Source: a virus
Lineage: Duplodnaviria > Heunggongvirae > Uroviricota > Caudoviricetes
IMG/VR virus record: IMGVR_UViG_3300028952_000009
Direction: 5' to 3' (one strand)
DNA: 8,388 nt
Part shown: positions 1 to 8,388 of the stretch, piece after piece
How the letters are laid out: each line of letters opens with the position of its first letter
Position numbering within the stretch: position 1 is the stretch's first letter
Notes under the pieces: model-generated
Database searches by the model: none
Told to the model about the DNA's origin: nothing
Seen by the model: only the letters and a program-made list of their open reading frames with translations
Program-made: the position numbers and the translations under genes

Positions 1-36
1 TGAACAGGAGGGACAGCTGATAGAAACAGAAGCCAC
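1..36 (-). CDS. insA: IS1 InsA, first 12 codons only (gene runs off the left edge)
   Basis: Minus strand 36 to 1 reads GTG GCT TCT GTT TCT ATC AGC TGT CCC TCC TGT TCA, i.e. (M)ASVSISCPSCS, matching the recalled InsA N-terminus with a GTG start. Too short to be in the ORF track. Confidence 0.65.
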   Translation of the reverse strand, partial: MASVSISCPSCS

Positions 37-91
37 TGGAGCACCTCAAAAACACCATCATACACTAAATCAGTAAGTTGGCAGCATCACC
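1..91 (-). mobile_element. IS1: IS1 insertion sequence, terminal 91 bp; the element continues beyond the left window edge
   Basis: Positions 69-91 read ATCAGTAAGTTGGCAGCATCACC, the reverse complement of the IS1 terminal inverted repeat GGTGATGCTGCCAACTTACTGAT. Positions 1-68 continue as the reverse complement of the adjoining IS1 interior, including the insA start. The match is to recalled IS1 sequence, not a search. The element boundary is at 91/92 and the flanking bases 92-100 are TGATGGTTA. Confidence 0.8.
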
Positions 92-228
92 TGATGGTTA
101 TATCGGGAAAAGGTTACAGAAGGCTGAGGGCATAATTGAAGGGATGTTAATGGCATTAGATATCCGGTTAGAGATGGATATCGTTGTTAATAACTCTAAT
201 TAATATGCCAATTGTTTACTAAAAATTA

Positions 229-254
229 TTAAAAATGGGGCGTTGAGACGCCCC
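229..254 (-). terminator. Rho-independent terminator for the nmpC / IpeX-like transcript
   Basis: GGGGCG (237-242) and CGCCCC (249-254) form a 6-bp GC stem with a 6-nt loop. On the minus strand the stem is followed directly by a U-rich run (complement of 226-236, AUUUUUAAUAAUUUUU). It lies about 140 nt downstream of the nmpC stop. Confidence 0.6.
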
Positions 255-342
255 CAAAAATAAAGGGTAATATATAACAGAAGGTTTATATAGTTAGAAG
301 CAAGGTTGTGCTTCTAAAGGAAGTGGCTTGAGGGAGCCACTT

Positions 343-382
343 ATATGTTGGGGAGGCAAAGCCTCCCGCAACATATCTTTTT
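343..382 (+). terminator. Plus-strand intrinsic-terminator-like hairpin abutting the 3' end of nmpC
   Basis: ATATGTTGGGGAGGC (343-357), loop AAA (358-360), GCCTCCC-g-CAACATAT (361-376, g368 bulged), followed on the plus strand by CTTTTT (377-382). On the minus strand no U-tract follows it, so its terminator polarity is opposite to nmpC. Confidence 0.45.
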
Positions 383-392
383 CGTAATCAGA

Positions 393-1475
393 TTAGAACT
401 GATACACCAGACCTACAGCGACGATGTCGTCGGTATCAATACCAGCTGTTTTGGTAAACTTACTATCGTCAATTAAGTTGATTTTGTAATCAACAAAAGT
501 GGACATGTTTTTATTAAAGTAGTAAGTAGCACCGACATCGACATACTTGACTAAGTCTCGGTCACCATGAACACCAAGGTCTTTACCTTTTGACTGAAGG
601 TAAGCAACAGATGGTCGCAGACCGAAGTCAAACTGATATTGTGCTACTGCTTCAAAGTTTTGTGCTTTGTTTGCAATATGGTTATTACCAAAAACGGTCA
701 TATTCTGAGTTTCAGAATATGTGGTAGCCAGATAGATATTGTTCGCATCATATTTCAGGCCTGCAGCCCATACTTCCGCATTTTTGCCGGAGGCATTGAA
801 TTTGCTCTTACCATAGGCGACCTGACCGTCAGTGCGATCTGATTTAGCATAGGTTGCACCCACGCCGAATCCTTCATACTCATAAGTAGTGGAGAAACCG
901 AAACCATCACCATTGGCTTCAGTTACGTCAGTGCGGTCATTTTTACCCTGATACTGAGCAGCAAAGTTCAGGCCATCGACCAGACCAAAGAAGTCGTTGT
1001 TACGATAGGTTGCAACACCAGTGGTGCGACCAGTCATGAACACATCTGTTTGGGTCCAGGTATCGCCACCGAATTCTGGCAGAACGTCAGTCCACGCACC
1101 GATGTCGTATGCTACACCGTAGTTACGGCCGTAATCGATTGAGCCGTAGTCACCGAATTTCAGGCCTGCAAATGCAAGACGGGTTTTGTCTTTGGAGGAA
1201 CCTTGAGATTCAGCGCGGTTGCCTTTGAATTCATATTCCCACTGACCGAAACCAGTCAGTTGATCGTTGATTTGGGTTTCACCTTTGAAGCCAAGACGGG
1301 CATAAGTAGTATCACCATCATCTGCATCGTTAGAGGAAAAGTAGTGCTTGGCATTAACTTTCCCGTACAGATCCAGCTTGTTACTGTCTTTATTATAAAT
1401 TTCAGCTGCCTGAGCAGACATCGCCATCAGTACTGATGCAGCTACAGCAGAAATTGCCACTGTTAATTTTTTCAT
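393..1475 (-). CDS. nmpC: Outer membrane porin of the OmpC/OmpF/PhoE family; prophage NmpC/Lc-type porin, apparently intact (360 aa)
   Basis: Full ORF from the track. N-terminal signal peptide [23 protein letters not shown] followed by AEIYNKD; porin-typical motifs; C-terminal aromatic ...VGLVYQF. SD-like AAGGG a few nt upstream of the ATG (complement of 1476-1490). Location between the Q region and the lysis cassette matches DLP12 nmpC and PA-2 lc. No IS5 interruption as in K-12. Confidence 0.92.
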
Positions 1476-2063
1476 CGTGAGCCCTTTTTTTTGAACTATT
1501 ATTAAAAAATGATGTCACTGCGCGATAAATATTCATCTAATCAATGTGATTATTTCAAGATGTAAGTTTTAGTTTCTCATTTAATTTGTGAAGTAGATCT
1601 CTATTTTTATCTGAACTTTTTCTATCGAAACCTATTTATGGCTCTTATTTGAACAAAAATAAACCTATTAGCTAATTTATATTAATGGCTGTTATTTATG
1701 GGGGTTCTATAATTCAGTGGTTTAATTTAAATCAGCTAAAAATAACGCCGGAAATTATTTATTGGTTATTTGTTGAGGTTTTCTTATATATTTGTGGTGG
1801 TGTTTTGAACACTCGGTAGCATTCTCATAAATATCATTCAGTGGTTTACGTACGTAAAAAATTGGTTATGCTGTTAAGAGTGGTTACTTCGTCACACAGC
1901 TTAAACCCGCCGTCGAGCTGGTTTTTCCATTTTTTGAGTCTCGATATTAGCTGATAACTCAATACCTGAGTTATTCACTGACTCCGAGTCTGTTACGTTT
2001 CTGCTTTTTTGCGATACGTTGTATTCCCTCAATTTACACCCGCTTTGTCTGCGAGGTGGGGTT

Positions 2064-2279
2064 ATGAAATCCATGGATAAGTTAACAACGGGTGTCGCCT
2101 ATGGCACCTCAGCAGGTAGTGCCGGTTACTGGTTTTTACAGCTGCTCGATAAAGTCACGCCCTCACAGTGGGCAGCAATAGGTGTGCTGGGTAGCCTGGT
2201 ATTTGGCCTGCTGACGTACCTGACAAACCTTTATTTCAAGATTAAAGAAGATAAGCGCAAGGCTGCGAGAGGTGAATAA
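2064..2279 (+). CDS. essD: Class II holin (pinholin), phage 21 S-type, 71 aa with dual-start motif
   Basis: ATG at 2064 is preceded by GAGGTGGGG (2053-2061). The product [26 protein letters not shown]... has two transmembrane segments (a Gly/Ala-rich SAR-like TMD1 and a hydrophobic TMD2) and a charged C-terminus. Met1-Lys-Ser-Met4 is the antiholin/holin dual start known for S21. The track ORF begins at 2019, but no RBS supports that start. Confidence 0.9.
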
Positions 2280-2776
2280 TGCCTCCATCATTACGAAAAG
2301 CCGTTGCTGCTGCTATTGGTGGCGGAGCAATTGCTATAGCATCAGTGTTAATCACTGGCCCAAGTGGTAACGATGGTCTGGAAGGTGTCAGCTACATACC
2401 ATACAAAGATATTGTTGGTGTATGGGCTGTATGTCACGGGCATACAGGAAAAGACATCATGCTCGGTAAAACGTATACCAAAGCAGAATGCAAAGCCCTC
2501 CTGAATAAAGACCTTGCCACGGTCGCCAGACAAATTAACCCGTACATAAAAGTTGATATACCGGAAACAACGCGCGGCGCTCTTTACTCGTTCGTTTACA
2601 ACGTGGGCGCTGGCAATTTCAGAACATCGACGCTTCTTCGCAAAATAAACCAGGGCGATATCAAAGGCGCATGTGATCAGCTACGTCGCTGGACATATGC
2701 TGGCGGTAAGCAATGGAAAGGTCTCATGACTCGTCGTGAGATTGAGCGTGAAATCTGTTTGTGGGGTCAGCAATGA
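2279..2776 (+). CDS. rrrD: SAR (signal-anchor-release) endolysin, T4-lysozyme-like muramidase, phage 21 R-type, 165 aa
   Basis: Start ATG overlaps the holin stop (TAATG at 2277-2281). N-terminal weakly hydrophobic Gly/Ala-rich SAR domain [20 protein letters not shown]. Glu35 (2381-2383) and Asp44 (2408-2410) are at T4L-like spacing. Residue 50 is Ala (gct, 2426-2428); see findings. Confidence 0.9.
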
Positions 2777-3234
2777 ACAGAGTAACCGCGATTATCTCCG
2801 CTCTGGTTATCTGCATCATCGTCTGCCTGTCATGGGCTGTTAATCATTACCGTGATAACGCCATTACCTACAAAGCCCAGCGCGACAAAAATGCCAGAGA
2901 ACTGAAGCTGGCGAACGCGGCAATTACTGACATGCAGATGCGCCAGCGTGATGTTGCTGCACTGGATGAAAAATACACGAAGGAGTTAGCTAATGCGAAA
3001 GCTGAAAATGATGCTCTGCGTGATGATGTTGCCGCTGGTCGTCGTCGGTTGCACATCAAAGCAGTCTGTCAGTCAGTGCGTGAAGCCACCACCGCCTCCG
3101 GCGTGGATAATGCAGCCTCCCCCCGACTGGCAGACACCGCTGAACGGGATTATTTCACCCTCAGAGAGAGGCTGATCACTATGCAAAAACAACTGGAAGG
3201 AACCCAGAAGTATATTAATGAGCAGTGCAGATAG
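2773..3234 (+). CDS. rzpD: Rz i-spanin (inner-membrane spanin subunit), 153 aa
   Basis: ATG at 2773-2775 overlaps the endolysin stop TGA at 2774-2776 (ATGA). N-terminal [23 protein letters not shown], then a coiled-coil-rich periplasmic domain. The track calls a GTG at 2761, which I reject because it lies inside the endolysin and the ATG gives the canonical overlap. Near-identical to recalled lambda Rz. Confidence 0.9.
2993..3175 (+). CDS. rzoD: Rz1 o-spanin lipoprotein, embedded in the +1 frame of Rz, 60 aa
   Basis: ATG at 2993 with AGGAG (2981-2985) 7 nt upstream. Lipoprotein signal [20 protein letters not shown] with lipobox VVG-C20; mature part is proline-rich (PPPPP). Lies wholly inside the Rz ORF in another frame. 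Confidence 0.85.
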
Positions 3235-3259
3235 AGCTGCCCATATCGATGGGCAACTC
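3234..3259. terminator. Stem-loop between convergent Rz and bor; possible weak bidirectional terminator or RNA 3'-end stabiliser
   Basis: TGCCCAT (3238-3244), loop ATCG, ATGGGCA (3249-3255), extendable with one mismatch to GAG/CTC (3234-3236 with 3257-3259). No U-tract on either strand, so termination efficiency is doubtful. Confidence 0.3.
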
Positions 3260-3265
3260 ATGCAA

Positions 3266-3559
3266 TTATTGTGAGCAATACACACGCGCTTCCAGCGGAG
3301 TATAAATGCCTAAAGTAATAAAACCGAGCAATCCATTTACGAATGTTTGCTGGGTTTCTGTTTTAACAACATTTTCTGCGCCGCCACAAATTTTGGCTGC
3401 ATCAACAGTTTTCTCCTGTCCAATTCCCGAAACGAAGAAGTGATGGGTGATGGTTTCCTTTGGTGTTACTGCTGTCGGTTTGTTTCCAACAGTAAACGTC
3501 TGTTGAGCACATCCTGTAATAAGCATTGCCAGAGCGGCAGAAAACAACATTTTTTTCAT
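3266..3559 (-). CDS. borD: Bor lipoprotein (lambda bor family, serum-resistance-associated outer membrane lipoprotein), 97 aa
   Basis: Minus-strand ATG at 3557-3559 with AGGA about 7 nt upstream (complement of 3566-3569). Lipoprotein signal MKKMLFSAALAMLITGC (lipobox ITG-C). The track ORF extends to 3607, but the upstream Mets lack a signal-peptide context. Convergent with Rz, as in lambda. Confidence 0.9.
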   Translation of the reverse strand: MKKMLFSAALAMLITGCAQQTFTVGNKPTAVTPKETITHHFFVSGIGQEKTVDAAKICGGAENVVKTETQQTFVNGLLGFITLGIYTPLEARVYCSQ

Positions 3560-3919
3560 CTTATTATCCTGCATTGTTAAAAACGGCAGAATCCTATGTG
3601 ACAACAATTAAACGATAGTTAAATGGATTGATGAAAATTAAAACTATATAGGTGGATGCTCAGCCTATTGGAGGAGGGGGGGCACTCAGAATCCTGTGGA
3701 ATGAAATAAACCGCTCTTTCTGTCCATTACCCTTTTAGCTGCGCTGTATCGTCGCCGTATTCCCGCATTAACCATGACCGTAGCCCGACGGGGAATTCCT
3801 TCTGCGTGAGTGTGCGGGAATAATCAAAAACGATGCACACCGGGTTTTACTGTGCTGACAGACGCAGGGTTACCCTCATAGTCGCTTTTCCGGTGCGATG
3901 GTGGAAGAAACCGGGATGT

Positions 3920-4114
3920 TTATTCATCATCACTCTGGATTGATGTATATGCTCTCTTTTCTGACGTTAGTCTCCGACGGCAGGCTTCAATGACCCAGGC
4001 TGAGAAATTCCCAGACCCTTTTTGCTCAAGAGCGATGTTAATTTGTTCAATCATTTGGTTAGGAAAGCGGATGTTGCGGGTTGTTGTTCTGCGGGTTCTG
4101 TTCTTAGTTGACAT
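3920..4114 (-). CDS. ylcI: Small YlcI/YnfO-family (DUF3950) protein, 64 aa; predicted ribbon-helix-helix-like DNA-binding fold
   Basis: Full ORF from the track. Basic N-terminus (KNRTRRTTTRNIRF) followed by a strand-helix-G-x-S-helix pattern (NIRFPNQMIEQINIALEQKGSGNFSAWVIEACRRRL) typical of RHH proteins. Position immediately upstream of cos matches ylcI in DLP12 and an equivalent small ORF at the right end of lambda, by recollection. The RHH assignment is inference from sequence pattern. Confidence 0.75.
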   Translation of the reverse strand: MSTKNRTRRTTTRNIRFPNQMIEQINIALEQKGSGNFSAWVIEACRRRLTSEKRAYTSIQSDDE

Positions 4115-4313
4115 GAGGTTGCCCCGTATTCAGTGTCGCTGATTTGTATTGTCTGAAGTTGTTTTTACGTTAAGTTGATGCAGATCAATTAATACGATAC
4201 CTGCGTCATAATTGATTATTTGACGTGGTTTGATGGCGTAGATGCACGTTGTGACATGTAGATGATAATTATTATCATTTTGCGGGTCCTTTCCGGCGAT
4301 CCGACAGGTTACG

Positions 4314-4325
4314 GGGCGGCGACCT
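4314..4325. other. cosN: lambda-type cohesive-end site (12-nt GGGCGGCGACCT); cosQ-like sequence lies about 20-35 bp upstream (about 4280-4296)
   Basis: The sequence ACAGGTTACG|GGGCGGCGACCT|CGCGGGTTTTCGC at 4304-4338 matches the recalled junction of the lambda right and left ends around its 12-nt cohesive end. 4170-4313 resembles the recalled lambda right-end sequence. Confidence 0.8.
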
Positions 4326-4352
4326 CGCGGGTTTTCGCTATTTATGAAAATT

Positions 4353-4478
4353 TTCCGGTTTAAGGCATTTCCGTTCTTCTTCGTCGTAACTTAATGTTTT
4401 TATTTAAAATACCCCCTGAAAAGAAAGGAAACGACAGGTGCTGAAAACGAGCTTTTGGGCCTCTGTCGTTTCCTTTCT
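4353..4478. promoter_or_regulatory. cosB: terminase small-subunit (Nu1) binding sites R3, R2, R1, with an AT-rich IHF-type site between R3 and R2
   Basis: R1 CTGTCGTTTCCTTTCT (4463-4478) and its exact inverted copy AGAAAGGAAACGACAG (4423-4438, R2) are seen directly. A degenerate R3-like AAGGCATTTCCGTTCT is at 4353-4368. The AT-rich stretch 4381-4420 is a plausible IHF site. Spacing to cosN and to the Nu1 start (4503) matches the lambda layout. Confidence 0.65.
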
Positions 4479-4502
4479 CTGTTTTTGGCCGTGGAATGAA
4501 CA

Positions 4503-5078
4503 ATGGAAGTCAACAAAAAGCAGCTGGCTGACATTTTCGGTGCGAGTATCCGTACCATTCAGAACTGGCAGGAACAGGGAATGCCCGTTCTGCGAGGCGG
4601 TGGCAAGGGTAATGAGGTGCTTTATGACTCTGCCGCCGTTATAAGATGGTATGCCGAAAGGGATGCTGAAATTGAGAACGAAAAGCTGCGCCGGGAAGTT
4701 GAAGAACTGCGGCAGGCCAGCGAGACAGATCTCCAGCCAGGGACTATTGAGTACGAACGCCATCGACTTACGCGTGCGCAGGCCGACGCACAGGAGCTGA
4801 AAAATGCCAGAGACTCCGCTGAAGTGGTGGAAACCGCATTCTGTACTTTCGTGCTGTCGCGGATCGCAGGTGAAATTGCCAGTATTCTCGACGGGATCCC
4901 CCTGTCGGTGCAGCGGCGTTTTCCGGAACTGGAAAACCGACATGTTGATTTCCTGAAACGGGATATCATCAAAGCCATGAACAAAGCAGCCGCGCTGGAT
5001 GAACTGATACCCGAACACGGCACTGGTCGGCGTGCAGGTGGACTCGGAGCAGTTCGGCAGCCAGCAGGTGAGCCGTAA
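4503..5078 (+). CDS. nohD: Terminase small subunit Nu1 homolog, C-terminally truncated by a deletion: about 170 Nu1-like residues, then a 21-residue out-of-frame tail read from J-derived DNA
   Basis: ATG at 4503. [54 protein letters not shown]... is the Nu1 winged-HTH DNA-binding N-terminus. Nu1 similarity runs to ...[10 protein letters not shown] (through about 5011); the rest ([21 protein letters not shown]) is unrelated. The gpA-interacting extreme C-terminus is therefore lost. Confidence 0.88.
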
Positions 5079-7854
5079 TTATCATCTTCGCGGGCGCATT
5101 CTGCAGGTGCCGTCGAACTATAACCCGCAGACGCGGCAATACAGCGGTATCTGGGACGGAACGTTTAAGCCGGCATACAGCAACAACCCGGCCTGGTGTC
5201 TGTGGGATATGCTGACCCACCCGCGCTACGGCATGGGGAAACGTCTTGGTGCGGCGGATGTGGATAAATGGGCGCTGTATGTCATCGGCCAGTACTGCGA
5301 CCAGTCAGTGCCGGACGGTTTTGGCGGCACGGAGCCGCGCATCACCTGTAATGCCTACCTGACCACGCAGCGTAAGGCGTGGGATGTGCTCAGTGATTTC
5401 TGCTCGGCGATGCGCTGTATGCCGGTATGGAACGGGCAGACGCTGACGTTCGTGCAGGACCGACCATCAGATAAGGTGTGGACCTATAACCGCAGTAATG
5501 TGGTGATGCCGGATGATGGCGCGCCGTTCCGCTACAGCTTCAGCGCCCTGAAGGACCGCCATAATGCCGTTGAGGTGAACTGGATTGACCCGAATAACGG
5601 CTGGGAGACGGCGACAGAGCTTGTTGAAGATACGCAGGCCATTCTCCGTTACGGTCGTAACGTCACGAAGATGGATGCCTTTGGCTGTACCAGCCGGGGG
5701 CAGGCACACCGCGCCGGGCTGTGGCTGATTAAAACGGAGCTGCTGGAAACGCAGACCGTGGACTTCAGCGTGGGTGCCGAAGGGCTTCGCCATGTACCGG
5801 GCGATGTCATTGAAATCTGCGATGATGACTATGCCGGTATCCGCACCGGCGGGCGCGTGCTGGCGGTAAACAGCCAGACCCGGACGCTGACGCTCGACCG
5901 TGAAATCACGCTGCCATCTTCCGGCACCACGCTGATAAGCCTGGTTGACGGGCAGGGGAGTCCGGTCAGCGTGGAGGTTCAGTCCGTCACCGACGGCGTG
6001 AAGGTGAAAGTGAGCCGTGTTCCTGACGGCGTTGCTGAATACAGCGTATGGGGGCTGAAGCTGCCGACGTTGCGCCAGCGCCTGTTCCGCTGCGTGAGTA
6101 TCCGTGAGAACGACGACGGCACGTATGCCATCACCGCCGTGCAGCATGTACCGGAAAAAGAGGCCATCGTGGATAACGGGGCGCACTTTGACGGCGACCA
6201 GAGCGGCACGGTAAATGGTGTCACGCCGCCAGCGGTGCAGCACCTGACCGCAGAAGTCACCGCAGACAGCGGGGAATACCAGGTGCTGGCCCGCTGGGAT
6301 ACGCCGAAGGTGGTGAAGGGCGTGAGCTTCCTGCTTCGCCTGACCGTGGCAGCGGATGACGGCCGTGAGCGACTGGTCAGCACGGCCCGGACGACGGAAA
6401 CCACTTACCGCTTCACACAACTGGCTCTGGGGAACTACAGGCTGACAGTCCGGGCAGTAAATGCGTGGGGGCAGCAGGGCGAGCCGGCGTCGGTATCGTT
6501 CCGGATTGCCGCACCGGCAGCGCCGTCGCAGATTGAGCTGACACCGGGGTATTTTCAGATAACCGCCACGCCGCATCTTGCGGTTTATGATCCGACGGTA
6601 CAGTTTGAGTTCTGGTTCTCGGAAAAGCGGATTGCGGATATCAGGCAGGTTGAAACCACAGCACGCTATCTTGGCACGGCGCTGTACTGGATAGCCGCCA
6701 GTATCAATATCAAACCGGGCCATGATTATTATTTTTACATCCGCAGTGTGAACACCGTTGGCAAATCGGCATTCGTGGAGGCTGTTGGCCAGCCGAGTGA
6801 TGATGCATCCGGCTATCTGAATTTTTTCAAAGGAGAGATAGGGAAAACCCATCTGGCTCAGGAGTTGTGGACGCAGATTGATAACGGTCAGCTTGCGCCT
6901 GACCTGGCGGAAATCAGAACGTCCATCACGGATGTCAGTAATGAAATCACGCAGACCGTCAATAAGAAACTGGAAGACCAGAGTGCGGCAATCCAGCAGA
7001 TACAGAAGGTTCAGGTTGATACAAATAATAACCTGAACAGCATGTGGGCTGTGAAGCTGCAGCAGATGCAGGACGGACGCCTTTATATCGCGGGTATTGG
7101 TGCCGGTATTGAGAATACCCCTGACGGTATGCAGAGTCAGGTGCTGCTGGCGGCGGACAGGATTGCGATGATTAATCCTGCGAATGGCAACACAAAGCCG
7201 ATGTTTGTTGGTCAGGGCGATCAGATATTCATGAACGAAGTGTTCCTGAAATATCTGACGGCTCCCACCATTACCAGCGGCGGTAATCCTCCGGCATTTT
7301 CCCTGACACCGGACGGGCGGCTGACGGCGAAAAATGCCGATATTAGCGGTAACGTGAATGCGAACTCCGGGACGCTCAACAACGTCACGATTAACGAGAA
7401 CTGCCGGGTTCTGGGAAAACTGTCCGCGAACCAGATTGAAGGCGATCTCGTTAAAACAGTGGGCAAAGCTTTCCCCCGGGACTCCCGTGCACCGGAGCGG
7501 TGGCCATCAGGGACCATTACCGTCAGGGTTTATGACGATCAGCCGTTTGACCGGCAAATTGTTATTCCGGCGGTGGCATTCAGTGGCGCTAAACATGAGC
7601 AAGATCATACTGATATCTACTCCTCATGCCGTCTGATAGTACGAAAAAACGGTGCTGAAATTTATAACCGAACGGCTCTGGATAATACGCTGATATATAC
7701 GGGTGTTATTGATATGCCTGCAGGCAGTGGTGTAATGACACTGGAATTTTCTGTATCGGCATGGCTGGTAAATGGCTGGTATCCCACAGCAAGTATCAGC
7801 GATTTGCTGGTTGTGGTGATGAAGAAAGCCACTGCAGGCATCATGATTAGCTGA
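5008..7854 (+). pseudogene. J: 5'-truncated tail-tip / host-specificity protein J (central fibre); about 948 codons open and in frame, but no native start or promoter
   Basis: From 5008 ([51 protein letters not shown]...) the frame matches recalled lambda J from roughly residue 185 onward and stays open to the stop at 7852-7854. A TGA at 5005-5007 sits just upstream in this frame. The track's 5032 start is a GTG inside J with no SD. The frame is +1 relative to Nu1, so no fusion protein is made. Confidence 0.85.
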
Positions 7855-7872
7855 ATTTTATAACCCATAACG

Positions 7873-7899
7873 GGCGTCAGAAATGACGCCTTTTTTATT
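7873..7899 (+). terminator. Rho-independent terminator immediately after J
   Basis: GGCGTCA (7873-7879), loop GAAA (7880-7883), TGACGCC (7884-7890), then TTTTTTATT (7891-7899). Confidence 0.7.
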
Positions 7900-7920
7900 G
7901 CAGAAAAGCGAGAGGTAATT

Positions 7921-8388
7921 ATGCGTAAACTTTATGCCGCCATTTTGTCCGTAGCCATTTGTCTGGCCGTATCCGGTGCGCCTGCATGGGCGTCTGAACA
8001 TCAGTCCACGCTGAGCGCGGGGTATCTTCATGCCTCGACGAACGTTCCCGGCAGCGATGATCTGAACGGGATTAACGTGAAATACCGTTATGAGTTTACG
8101 GACACGCTGGGGCTGGTGACGTCATTCAGTTATGCCAATGCCAAAGATGAGCAAAAAACGCATTACAGCGATACCCGCTGGCATGAAGATTCCGTGCGTA
8201 ACCGCTGGTTCAGCGTGATGGCGGGGCCGTCTGTGCGCGTGAATGAATGGTTCAGCGCGTATGCGATGGCGGGTATGGCTTACAGCCGTGTGTCGACCTT
8301 CTCCGGGGATTATCTCCGCGTAACTGACAACAAGGGGAAAACGCACGATGTGCTGACCGGAAGTGATGACGGTCGCCACAGCAACACG
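7921..8388 (+). CDS. lom: Lom outer membrane protein (Ail/Lom/OmpX family), 3' partial (first 156 codons; gene runs off the right edge)
   Basis: ATG at 7921 with GAGAGG/GAGG (about 7908-7914) upstream. Signal peptide MRKLYAAILSVAICLAVSGAPAWA followed by SEHQSTLSAGYLHASTN...; near-identical to recalled lambda Lom. Gene order J then lom as in lambda. Confidence 0.9.
   Translation, partial: MRKLYAAILSVAICLAVSGAPAWASEHQSTLSAGYLHASTNVPGSDDLNGINVKYRYEFTDTLGLVTSFSYANAKDEQKTHYSDTRWHEDSVRNRWFSVMAGPSVRVNEWFSAYAMAGMAYSRVSTFSGDYLRVTDNKGKTHDVLTGSDDGRHSNT

What the first reader, a model, noticed from the sequence alone, without database searches (positions are those of the whole stretch)
1..91. IS1 end about 140 bp beyond the porin terminator, in the region where the Q-dependent late promoter would be expected
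The window opens inside an IS1 whose end is at 91. In lambdoid phages the segment between Q and the lysis genes carries pR', the qut site and tR'. An IS1 here, with nmpC in antisense orientation, could uncouple the lysis cassette and downstream morons from Q-dependent late transcription. It could also be one arm of an IS1-mediated rearrangement that shaped this remnant. Only one end is visible, so whether it is a simple insertion (flanked by a target duplication) or a deletion or inversion boundary cannot be decided from this window.
Basis: partly seen in the sequence, partly recalled or inferred. Interest (0 to 1): 0.45.

Follow-up and report, generated by a model that had tools for sequence, protein, structure and literature searches.

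The report
IS1 insertion splitting prophage Q gene
The window opens with the last 91 bases of an ordinary IS1 element that has inserted into the Q antiterminator gene (quuD) of the cryptic prophage DLP12, not into its late promoter, which is routine decay of a prophage remnant.

Summary
Window 1-91 is the exact reverse complement of the first 91 nt of IS1 (left inverted repeat, insA promoter, first 12 insA codons), ending at base 91.

The location was misread. Bases 93-203 are the last 36 codons plus stop of quuD (ybcQ), the Q antiterminator of prophage DLP12, so IS1 sits inside Q, not between Q and the lysis genes.

The nearest complete genome is E. coli TUM10008, 100% identical over window 1-7866. 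That makes it a simple insertion. It creates a stop after Gly93 and removes 34 of 127 residues.

The late-promoter (pR') homologue lies at 1845-1872, between nmpC and essD, 1.75 kb away and intact. Any loss of Q-dependent late transcription would therefore come from truncating the trans-acting factor (inferred), not from cis uncoupling.

This junction occurs in 1 of 5426 complete E. coli genomes. Other lineages carry different IS hits nearby.

It is ordinary and already annotated in RefSeq. Interest is low.

The parts
1..91 (-). Left (IRL) end of IS1: first 91 nt of the element, read on the minus strand. It holds the terminal inverted repeat (about 69-91), the insA promoter-like site (57-84) and the first 12 codons of insA (36..1). 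The rest of the element lies off the window.
   Evidence: 100% identical to IS1 copies in TUM10008. Translation is VASVSISCPSCS. Promoter-like site found. Imperfect terminal inverted repeats of the full element shown (I1).
92..100 (.). Right-hand copy of the 9-bp target-site duplication TGATGGTTA.
   Evidence: In TUM10008 the same 9 bp flank both ends of the 768-bp IS1, with 777-nt spacing (D2). BLR(DE3) has a single copy at the empty site.
93..203 (+). 3' fragment of quuD (ybcQ), the DLP12 Q antiterminator: codons 92-127 plus the stop at 201-203. It is cut off from its 5' part by IS1.
   Evidence: PGAP annotates it as 'quuD, missing N-terminus' in TUM10008. It is identical to intact quuD of BLR(DE3). 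Full-length QuuD matches PF06530 Phage_antitermQ over residues 1-118.
204..392 (.). Convergent terminator region between quuD and nmpC. It has a GC hairpin at 237-254 (nmpC terminator on the minus strand), hairpins at 295-316 and 321-342, and a hairpin at 343-376 followed by a T-run at 378-382 (candidate plus-strand terminator for quuD transcription).
   Evidence: Terminator scan. The RNA fold of the plus strand gives -66.9 kcal/mol, z = -5.87. No Rfam family matched.
393..1475 (-). Intact nmpC-type porin gene (360 aa), a moron lying antisense between Q and the late promoter.
   Evidence: Porin_1 E=1.9e-151. Annotated as a porin in TUM10008. The same Q-porin-holin order is seen in sequenced lambdoid phage genomes in the phage collection.
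1845..1872 (+). Homologue of the lambdoid late promoter pR': -35 TTTACG (1845-1850), 16-nt spacer, -10 TATGCT (1867-1872). It is followed by a conserved initially transcribed stretch and a hairpin plus T-run (about 1898-1936). It is intact and 1.75 kb from the IS1 end.
   Evidence: Window 1844-1926 matches hundreds of phage records, mostly Stx-converting, at or just after their Q gene in the rows listed. It aligns with the feature annotated pR' in phage 06-3462. My relaxed sigma-70 scan picked the same hexamers.
2064..3234 (+). DLP12 lysis cassette essD (holin), rrrD (endolysin) and rzpD (spanin). These are the genes whose read-through expression Q is reported to control.
   Evidence: Pfam hits Phage_holin_2_1, Phage_lysozyme and Phage_lysis. 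PGAP names. Q control is cited in PMC7918800.

Best explanation

Shown:
- A standard 768-bp IS1 has transposed into the coding sequence of quuD, the prophage's Q antiterminator, duplicating the 9-bp target TGATGGTTA.
- Only the IRL end of that element (bases 1-91) is in the window.
- The TA of the target plus the first G of IS1 form a TAG stop directly after Gly93. The gene now encodes QuuD(1-93) and has lost its last 34 residues.
- The cis elements of late transcription are untouched. These are the pR' homologue at 1845-1872 and the lysis cassette.

Inferred:
- The lost segment includes the strongly conserved stretch that, by homology with Q21, should form the DNA-reading helix and the C-terminal RNA polymerase contact. 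The truncated protein most likely cannot load onto RNA polymerase at pR'.
- Transcripts from pR' would then stop at the downstream terminator. The lysis cassette would be left with Q-independent expression only, unless another resident prophage supplies a compatible Q.

This is ordinary insertional decay of a prophage remnant.
For: Identity and end of IS1.

Full element and duplication in TUM10008:
- The IS1 is 768 bp with imperfect terminal inverted repeats and a 9-bp duplication.
- TUM10008 is 100% identical to window 1-7866.
- The empty site with a single TGATGGTTA is seen in BLR(DE3).

Disruption of quuD:
- PGAP annotates quuD as two fragments around an IS1A transposase.
- Translation gives ...HCCSDG*.
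- The Pfam Q domain spans residues 1-118, so truncation at 93 removes part of it.
- Residues 94-120 are nearly identical between QuuD and a 933W-type Stx-phage Q that is 78% identical overall.
- QuuD 8-87 aligns to Q21 20-100 (E=7.6e-8).
- In Q21 the loop of the helix-turn[loop]-helix motif is residues 105-121, the following helix reads the DNA, and the last six residues contact RNA polymerase (bioRxiv 10.1101/651190).

Location of pR': homologue at 1845-1872.

Function of DLP12 Q:
- It is reported to control the lysis cassette (Rueggeberg et al. 2013, as cited in PMC7918800).
- The sequenced phage 434B carries the DLP12 Q-nmpC::IS5 segment as its only full-length Q gene; its lambda-type Q is annotated as an N-terminal fragment.
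Against: - The left side of the IS1 is not in the window. The simple-insertion verdict rests on one other genome, which differs from the window beyond base 7867.
- No expression or activity data exist for the truncated Q.
- The Q21 alignment stops at QuuD residue 87, so assigning the lost segment to the recognition helix is an extrapolation.
- A compatible Q from another prophage could act in trans. quuD-like genes occur up to 5 times per genome.
- A Q-independent promoter reported upstream of essD maps near window 1524. It would still drive some lysis-gene expression.
Confidence: 0.88

Rival explanations
1. One reading: IS1 lies in the Q-to-lysis segment that carries pR', qut and tR', and so cuts the lysis cassette and morons off from the late promoter in cis.
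For: IS1 does lie upstream of nmpC and the lysis genes on the late-transcription strand. In Stx phages with a related Q, pR' directly abuts the Q gene.
Against: The 111 nt to the right of IS1 are quuD coding sequence. The pR' homologue is at 1845-1872, downstream of nmpC and contiguous with essD. No sigma-70-type plus-strand promoter was found in 92-392 at the tool's threshold, and my relaxed scan found only weak 8-of-12 matches there.
Confidence: 0.03
2. In the window's own genome this IS1 is the edge of an IS1-mediated deletion or inversion, or a recombinant between two IS1 copies. The left flank would then not be the 5' part of quuD.
For: The left flank is not visible. TUM10008 has a second IS1 in the same orientation 2.2 kb to the left that lacks a target duplication and marks a rearrangement. 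The two copies could recombine. IS1 copies bound deletions next to Q in strains MB22, O157:H16 and F8. The source genome is not identical to TUM10008 beyond base 7867.
Against: The junction is identical to the base, and the next 7.8 kb are 100% identical, to a genome where the insertion is simple with a perfect 9-bp duplication. The original event was therefore a simple transposition. A later IS1-IS1 deletion is possible, but nothing points to one.
Confidence: 0.07
3. The IS1 fragment is an assembly artefact: a contig end that runs into a multi-copy repeat and is wrongly joined to quuD.
For: The window starts 91 nt inside a repeat present in many copies per genome, as short-read contigs often do. 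Its right end also lies in sequence shared between prophages.
Against: The same junction is present in an independent assembly listed at complete-genome level, with the matching left junction and duplication.
Confidence: 0.02

Closest known systems
IS1 (IS1A-type) insertion sequence of Enterobacteriaceae
   Same: Identical terminal 91 nt. In the sister genome it is 768 bp long, with imperfect terminal inverted repeats of about 23 nt, an insA/insB' transposase with programmed frameshift, and a 9-bp target duplication.
   Different: Nothing differs. Only the insertion site is specific: quuD between codons 93 and 94.
DLP12 (qsr') cryptic lambdoid prophage of E. coli K-12 and B
   Same: Same gene order: quuD, nmpC (antisense), essD-rrrD-rzpD, bor/iss, ylcI, small terminase subunit. 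The prophage sits at the argU tRNA-Arg next to intD in TUM10008 and BLR(DE3). Identity to B strains over window 1-7899 is 99.9%.
   Different: Here nmpC is intact and quuD is hit by IS1. K-12 has nmpC::IS5 (seen in the 434B record) and B strains have nmpC::IS1, each with quuD intact. The right end of the window carries lom after J, unlike TUM10008.
Q antiterminators of the Q21 / 933W family (Pfam PF06530) with their pR' promoters
   Same: QuuD matches the family profile end to end. It is 78% identical to a 933W-type Q and related to Q21, whose structures are solved. A pR' homologue is present.
   Different: In Stx phages pR' overlaps the end of Q. Here about 1.64 kb (terminators, nmpC and its upstream region) lie between Q and pR'. 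In this window Q is truncated at residue 93.
Other IS insertions at the DLP12 Q-nmpC locus
   Same: In strain E100341 an IS1 in the same orientation sits directly after the quuD stop, with a 9-bp duplication corresponding to window 201-209.

Membership tests
IS1 family insertion sequence | Sequence identity to reference IS1 copies at the terminus | tested here: met
   Window 1-91 is 91/91 identical to both IS1 copies of TUM10008, which PGAP names IS1A family.
IS1 family insertion sequence | Element of about 768 bp with imperfect terminal inverted repeats of about 23 bp | tested here: met
   Met in the near-identical genome TUM10008: 768 bp, with 24-nt arms 79% complementary at the two ends. 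In the window only one arm is visible.
IS1 family insertion sequence | insA followed by insB', with transposase made by a programmed -1 frameshift | tested here: inconclusive
   The window holds only the first 12 insA codons. The full copy in TUM10008 is annotated as a transposase with programmed frameshift, but I did not re-derive the frameshift site.
IS1 family insertion sequence | 8-9 bp target-site duplication for a simple insertion | tested here: met
   TGATGGTTA lies on both sides in TUM10008 and once at the empty site in BLR(DE3). The left copy in the window's own genome is not visible.
DLP12 (qsr') prophage | Lambdoid remnant integrated at the argU tRNA-Arg next to intD, with quuD-nmpC-essD-rrrD-rzpD-bor order | tested here: met
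   Gene order in the window. tRNA-Arg and intD adjacency shown in TUM10008 and BLR(DE3).
Q antiterminator, PF06530 (Q21/933W type) | Full-length match to the family profile | tested here: not met
   Intact QuuD matches positions 1-118 of 118 (E=8.5e-54). The allele at this junction ends at residue 93, so it is a truncated pseudogene of the family rather than a full member.
Q antiterminator, PF06530 (Q21/933W type) | Cognate late promoter with Q-binding element and pause site, followed by a terminator | tested here: inconclusive
   A pR' homologue with conserved -35, -10 and early transcribed region is at 1845-1926. The Q-binding element, pause site and effective terminator were not identified.
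Q antiterminator, PF06530 (Q21/933W type) | Antitermination activity | not testable with these tools
   Activity of intact DLP12 Q is known only from the literature (cited in PMC7918800). The 434B record carries the DLP12 Q-nmpC segment as its only full-length Q gene.

The most novel reading that the evidence does not exclude
The quuD-nmpC corner of DLP12 may be a recurrent, possibly selected, target for IS elements. Independent lineages carry quuD::IS1 (this window), IS1 just after the quuD stop, nmpC::IS1 and nmpC::IS5. Knocking out Q would then be an adaptive domestication step. It would silence Q-driven expression of the lysis cassette and alter envelope, biofilm and vesicle phenotypes while keeping the porin and bor/iss morons.
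Probability: 0.12. Interest if true: 0.3.

Novelty: already known. Interest (0 to 1): 0.08.

Why it matters
It matters little beyond correct annotation.
- This DLP12 copy carries a truncated Q gene, so predictions of Q-dependent lysis-cassette expression should not be carried over from K-12 to this strain. In K-12 that expression has been linked to biofilm, peptidoglycan turnover and vesicle phenotypes.
- The late promoter of DLP12-type phages lies beyond the nmpC moron, not next to Q. This is worth knowing when other windows from this prophage family are read.

Tried and rejected
- Exact-match scans for the IS1/quuD junction (34 nt) found nothing in the species-representative genomes or in the JGI metagenome contigs. 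The allele appears confined to one lineage.
- Rfam searches at gathering and at E<=1 thresholds found no RNA family in the window or in 1-2300. No tRNA genes were found.
- I looked for an outward hybrid promoter at the IS1/target junction (TTGGCA at 78-83, then 17 nt, then TATCGG). It lacks the final T of the -10. Neither the tool scan nor my relaxed scan reported it. I dropped the idea.
- I looked for pR' in 204-392, directly after Q. Only weak 8-of-12 hexamer pairs occur there, and no phage pR' homology.
- The two primary papers on DLP12 Q and RpoE control (PubMed 23378572 and 25998262) are not held. I used the citing paper and its primer table to place their reporter fragment at window 1403 to about 2188.
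- A weak-threshold Pfam scan of QuuD for sigma region 4 or HTH families gave nothing beyond PF06530. NCBIfam gave no hit.
- A profile search of the PDB did not extend the Q21 alignment past residue 100.
- I did not run the large protein searches or a structure prediction. Full-length QuuD is not encoded in the window, and the result would not change the verdict.

Full report
**The observation.** Window 1-91 is the reverse complement of the first 91 nt of IS1.
- It is 91/91 identical to both IS1 copies of E. coli TUM10008.
- Its minus strand starts the insA reading frame at base 36 (VASVSISCPSCS).
- The scan found the promoter-like site CTGCCA-16-TATGAT at 84..57 on the minus strand, where the insA promoter inside the left inverted repeat is expected.
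- A 400-nt query whose first 91 nt are this segment hit 75,467 places in 5252 of 5426 complete E. coli genomes. Most of that signal must come from the IS1 part, though the count was not split by segment. Genomes without an IS at this spot align only from base 91/92 onward.
- The porin gene (393-1475, minus strand, Porin_1 E=1.9e-151) and its terminator (hairpin 254..237 plus T-run) are also as described, 146 bp from the IS1 end.

**Where IS1 sits.** That is wrong.
- Window 93-203 is in frame with, and identical to, the last 36 codons and stop of quuD (ybcQ). This is the Q antiterminator of the cryptic prophage DLP12, also called Qsr (name per PMC5811629).
- Intact QuuD is 127 aa and matches Pfam PF06530 (Phage_antitermQ) over residues 1-118.
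- IS1 is therefore inside the Q gene.

**The left side, from a sister genome.** E. coli TUM10008 (NZ_CP135658) is the only one of 5426 complete genomes that carries the same junction in one piece.
- It is 100% identical to window 1-7866. All differences fall in 7867-7886, just before a break at 7899.
- The element there is exactly 768 bp, with imperfect terminal inverted repeats (I1).
- It is flanked by TGATGGTTA on both sides, 777 nt apart (D2).
- BLR(DE3) shows the empty site with one copy.
- quuD codons 1-93 lie directly to the left.
- The event was a simple transposition. By contrast, the second IS1 of TUM10008, 2.2 kb further left, has no duplication and marks a rearrangement.

**Consequence for Q.**
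- The TA of the target plus the first G of IS1 make a TAG stop directly after Gly93 (…HCCSDG*). The allele encodes QuuD(1-93) and lacks 34 residues.
- The lost part is conserved. Residues 94-120 are almost identical between QuuD and the 933W-type Q of Stx phage 06-3462, which is 78% identical overall.
- QuuD 8-87 aligns with Q21 residues 20-100 (E=7.6e-8).
- In Q21 the DNA-binding helix-turn[loop]-helix has its loop at 105-121 and reads DNA with the helix that follows. The last six residues contact RNA polymerase (bioRxiv 10.1101/651190).
- By extrapolation, the truncation removes the DNA-reading helix and the C-terminal polymerase contact, so loss of function is likely. This step is inferred, because the alignment itself stops at QuuD residue 87.

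**Where the late promoter is.**
- Window 1844-1926 matches hundreds of phage records, mostly Stx-converting phages. In the rows listed, the match lies at or just after their Q gene.
- In phage 06-3462 the matching stretch is annotated pR'.
- The alignment conserves -35 TTTACG (1845-1850), a 16-nt spacer, -10 TATGCT (1867-1872), the first ~20 transcribed bases, and a hairpin with a T-run. My relaxed scan picked the same hexamers.
- In Stx phages, PR' is constitutive and closely associated with Q, and its transcript is terminated 258 nt downstream (PMC7547250).
- In DLP12-type elements about 1.64 kb lie between Q and pR': a heavily structured convergent-terminator region (204-392, z = -5.87), nmpC, and its upstream region.
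- The same Q-porin-holin layout occurs in sequenced lambdoid phage genomes such as ev207, 4A7 and Perceval.
- Phage 434B carries the K-12 DLP12 Q-nmpC::IS5 segment as its only full-length Q gene. Its lambda-type Q is annotated as an N-terminal fragment.
- A further promoter was reported for the lysis cassette. The reporter fragment described as -121 to +650 starts at window 1403, which puts that start near 1524.
- Both promoters lie beyond nmpC and are identical to those of IS-free genomes. IS1 does not uncouple anything in cis.

**Likely mechanism.** IS1 inactivates the trans-acting Q.
- pR' transcripts should then end at the terminator before essD.
- The lysis cassette (2064-3234) would keep only Q-independent expression.
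- DLP12 Q has been reported to control this cassette (Rueggeberg et al. 2013, cited in PMC7918800).
- Two caveats apply. Another prophage's Q of the same type could act in trans, since up to 5 quuD-like places occur per genome. No expression data exist for this allele.

**Distribution.**
- quuD-like genes occur in 3435 of 5426 complete genomes. In 3138 of them one place covers at least 80% of the gene.
- This junction is in one genome. It is absent from the species-representative genomes and from the JGI metagenome contigs.
- Other lineages carry different IS events close by:
  - IS1 directly after the quuD stop in E100341, with a duplication corresponding to window 201-209.
  - IS1 at deletion edges next to Q in strains O157:H16, F8 and MB22.
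  - IS1 in nmpC of B strains, with a duplication at window 897-905.
  - IS5 in nmpC of K-12.
- The search query fixed the IS1 orientation, so the shared orientation of these hits is not informative.

**Verdict.** This is a real but ordinary feature: a standard IS1, a standard 9-bp duplication and a cryptic-prophage gene turned into a pseudogene. RefSeq already annotates it that way in TUM10008. Its placement relative to Q and pR' was wrong. Interest is low.

Noticed in passing
window 204-392: The spacer between the convergent quuD and nmpC genes is unusually structured. It has four consecutive hairpins, MFE -66.9 kcal/mol, z = -5.87 against shuffles. One is a GC hairpin that terminates nmpC on the minus strand. 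Another is a 15-bp bulged hairpin with a T-run that looks like a plus-strand terminator. No Rfam family matches.
   Followed up: partly
window 1844-1936: A homologue of the Stx-phage late promoter pR' and its early transcribed region lies here, between nmpC and essD. The region corresponds to the start of the transcript that yields the StxS small RNA in Stx phages. Whether DLP12 makes a comparable short RNA was not examined.
   Followed up: partly
window 1491-1524: A GAACTA…GTCACT motif resembling a sigma-E promoter lies just upstream of the position (about 1524) implied by the published '-121 to +650' lysis-cassette reporter, whose forward primer maps at 1403-1422. The sigma-E resemblance is my own reading. 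The primary paper could not be read.
   Followed up: partly
window 393-1475: The nmpC-type porin gene is intact here (360 aa). It is interrupted by IS1 in E. coli B strains (9-bp duplication at window 897-905) and by IS5 in K-12.
   Followed up: partly
window 4503-7854: The small terminase subunit gene (Nu1 family, 4503-5078) runs straight into an N-terminally truncated tail-tip J gene (ORF 5032-7854). All head genes and most tail genes have been deleted, so this prophage cannot make particles. BLR(DE3) lacks a further ~0.87 kb (window 5178-6043).
   Followed up: partly
window 7867-8388: Identity to TUM10008 and B-strain DLP12 decays at 7867-7886 and ends at 7899. The window then continues into a lom gene (7921 to the window end, Ail_Lom E=2.5e-96), whereas those genomes continue into a tail-fibre gene. 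The stretch 7600-8388 is 100% identical to a different prophage location in REL606, strain C and others. This suggests recombination between prophages within J, or a contig joined across a repeat.
   Followed up: partly
L001 5328-6095 (TUM10008, left of the window): A second IS1 in the same orientation lies 2.2 kb to the left of the quuD copy. It has no target duplication and sits between ren and a truncated ybcM-like gene, where B strains carry emrE-ybcK-ybcL. It looks like an IS1-associated deletion or replacement. The two direct IS1 copies bracket ybcN-rusA-quuD' and could recombine.
   Followed up: partly
L003 1620-2387 (E. coli E100341): An independent IS1 sits immediately after the quuD stop codon, with a 9-bp duplication corresponding to window 201-209 and the same orientation. 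Five other listed genomes show the same spacing of matching pieces.
   Followed up: partly
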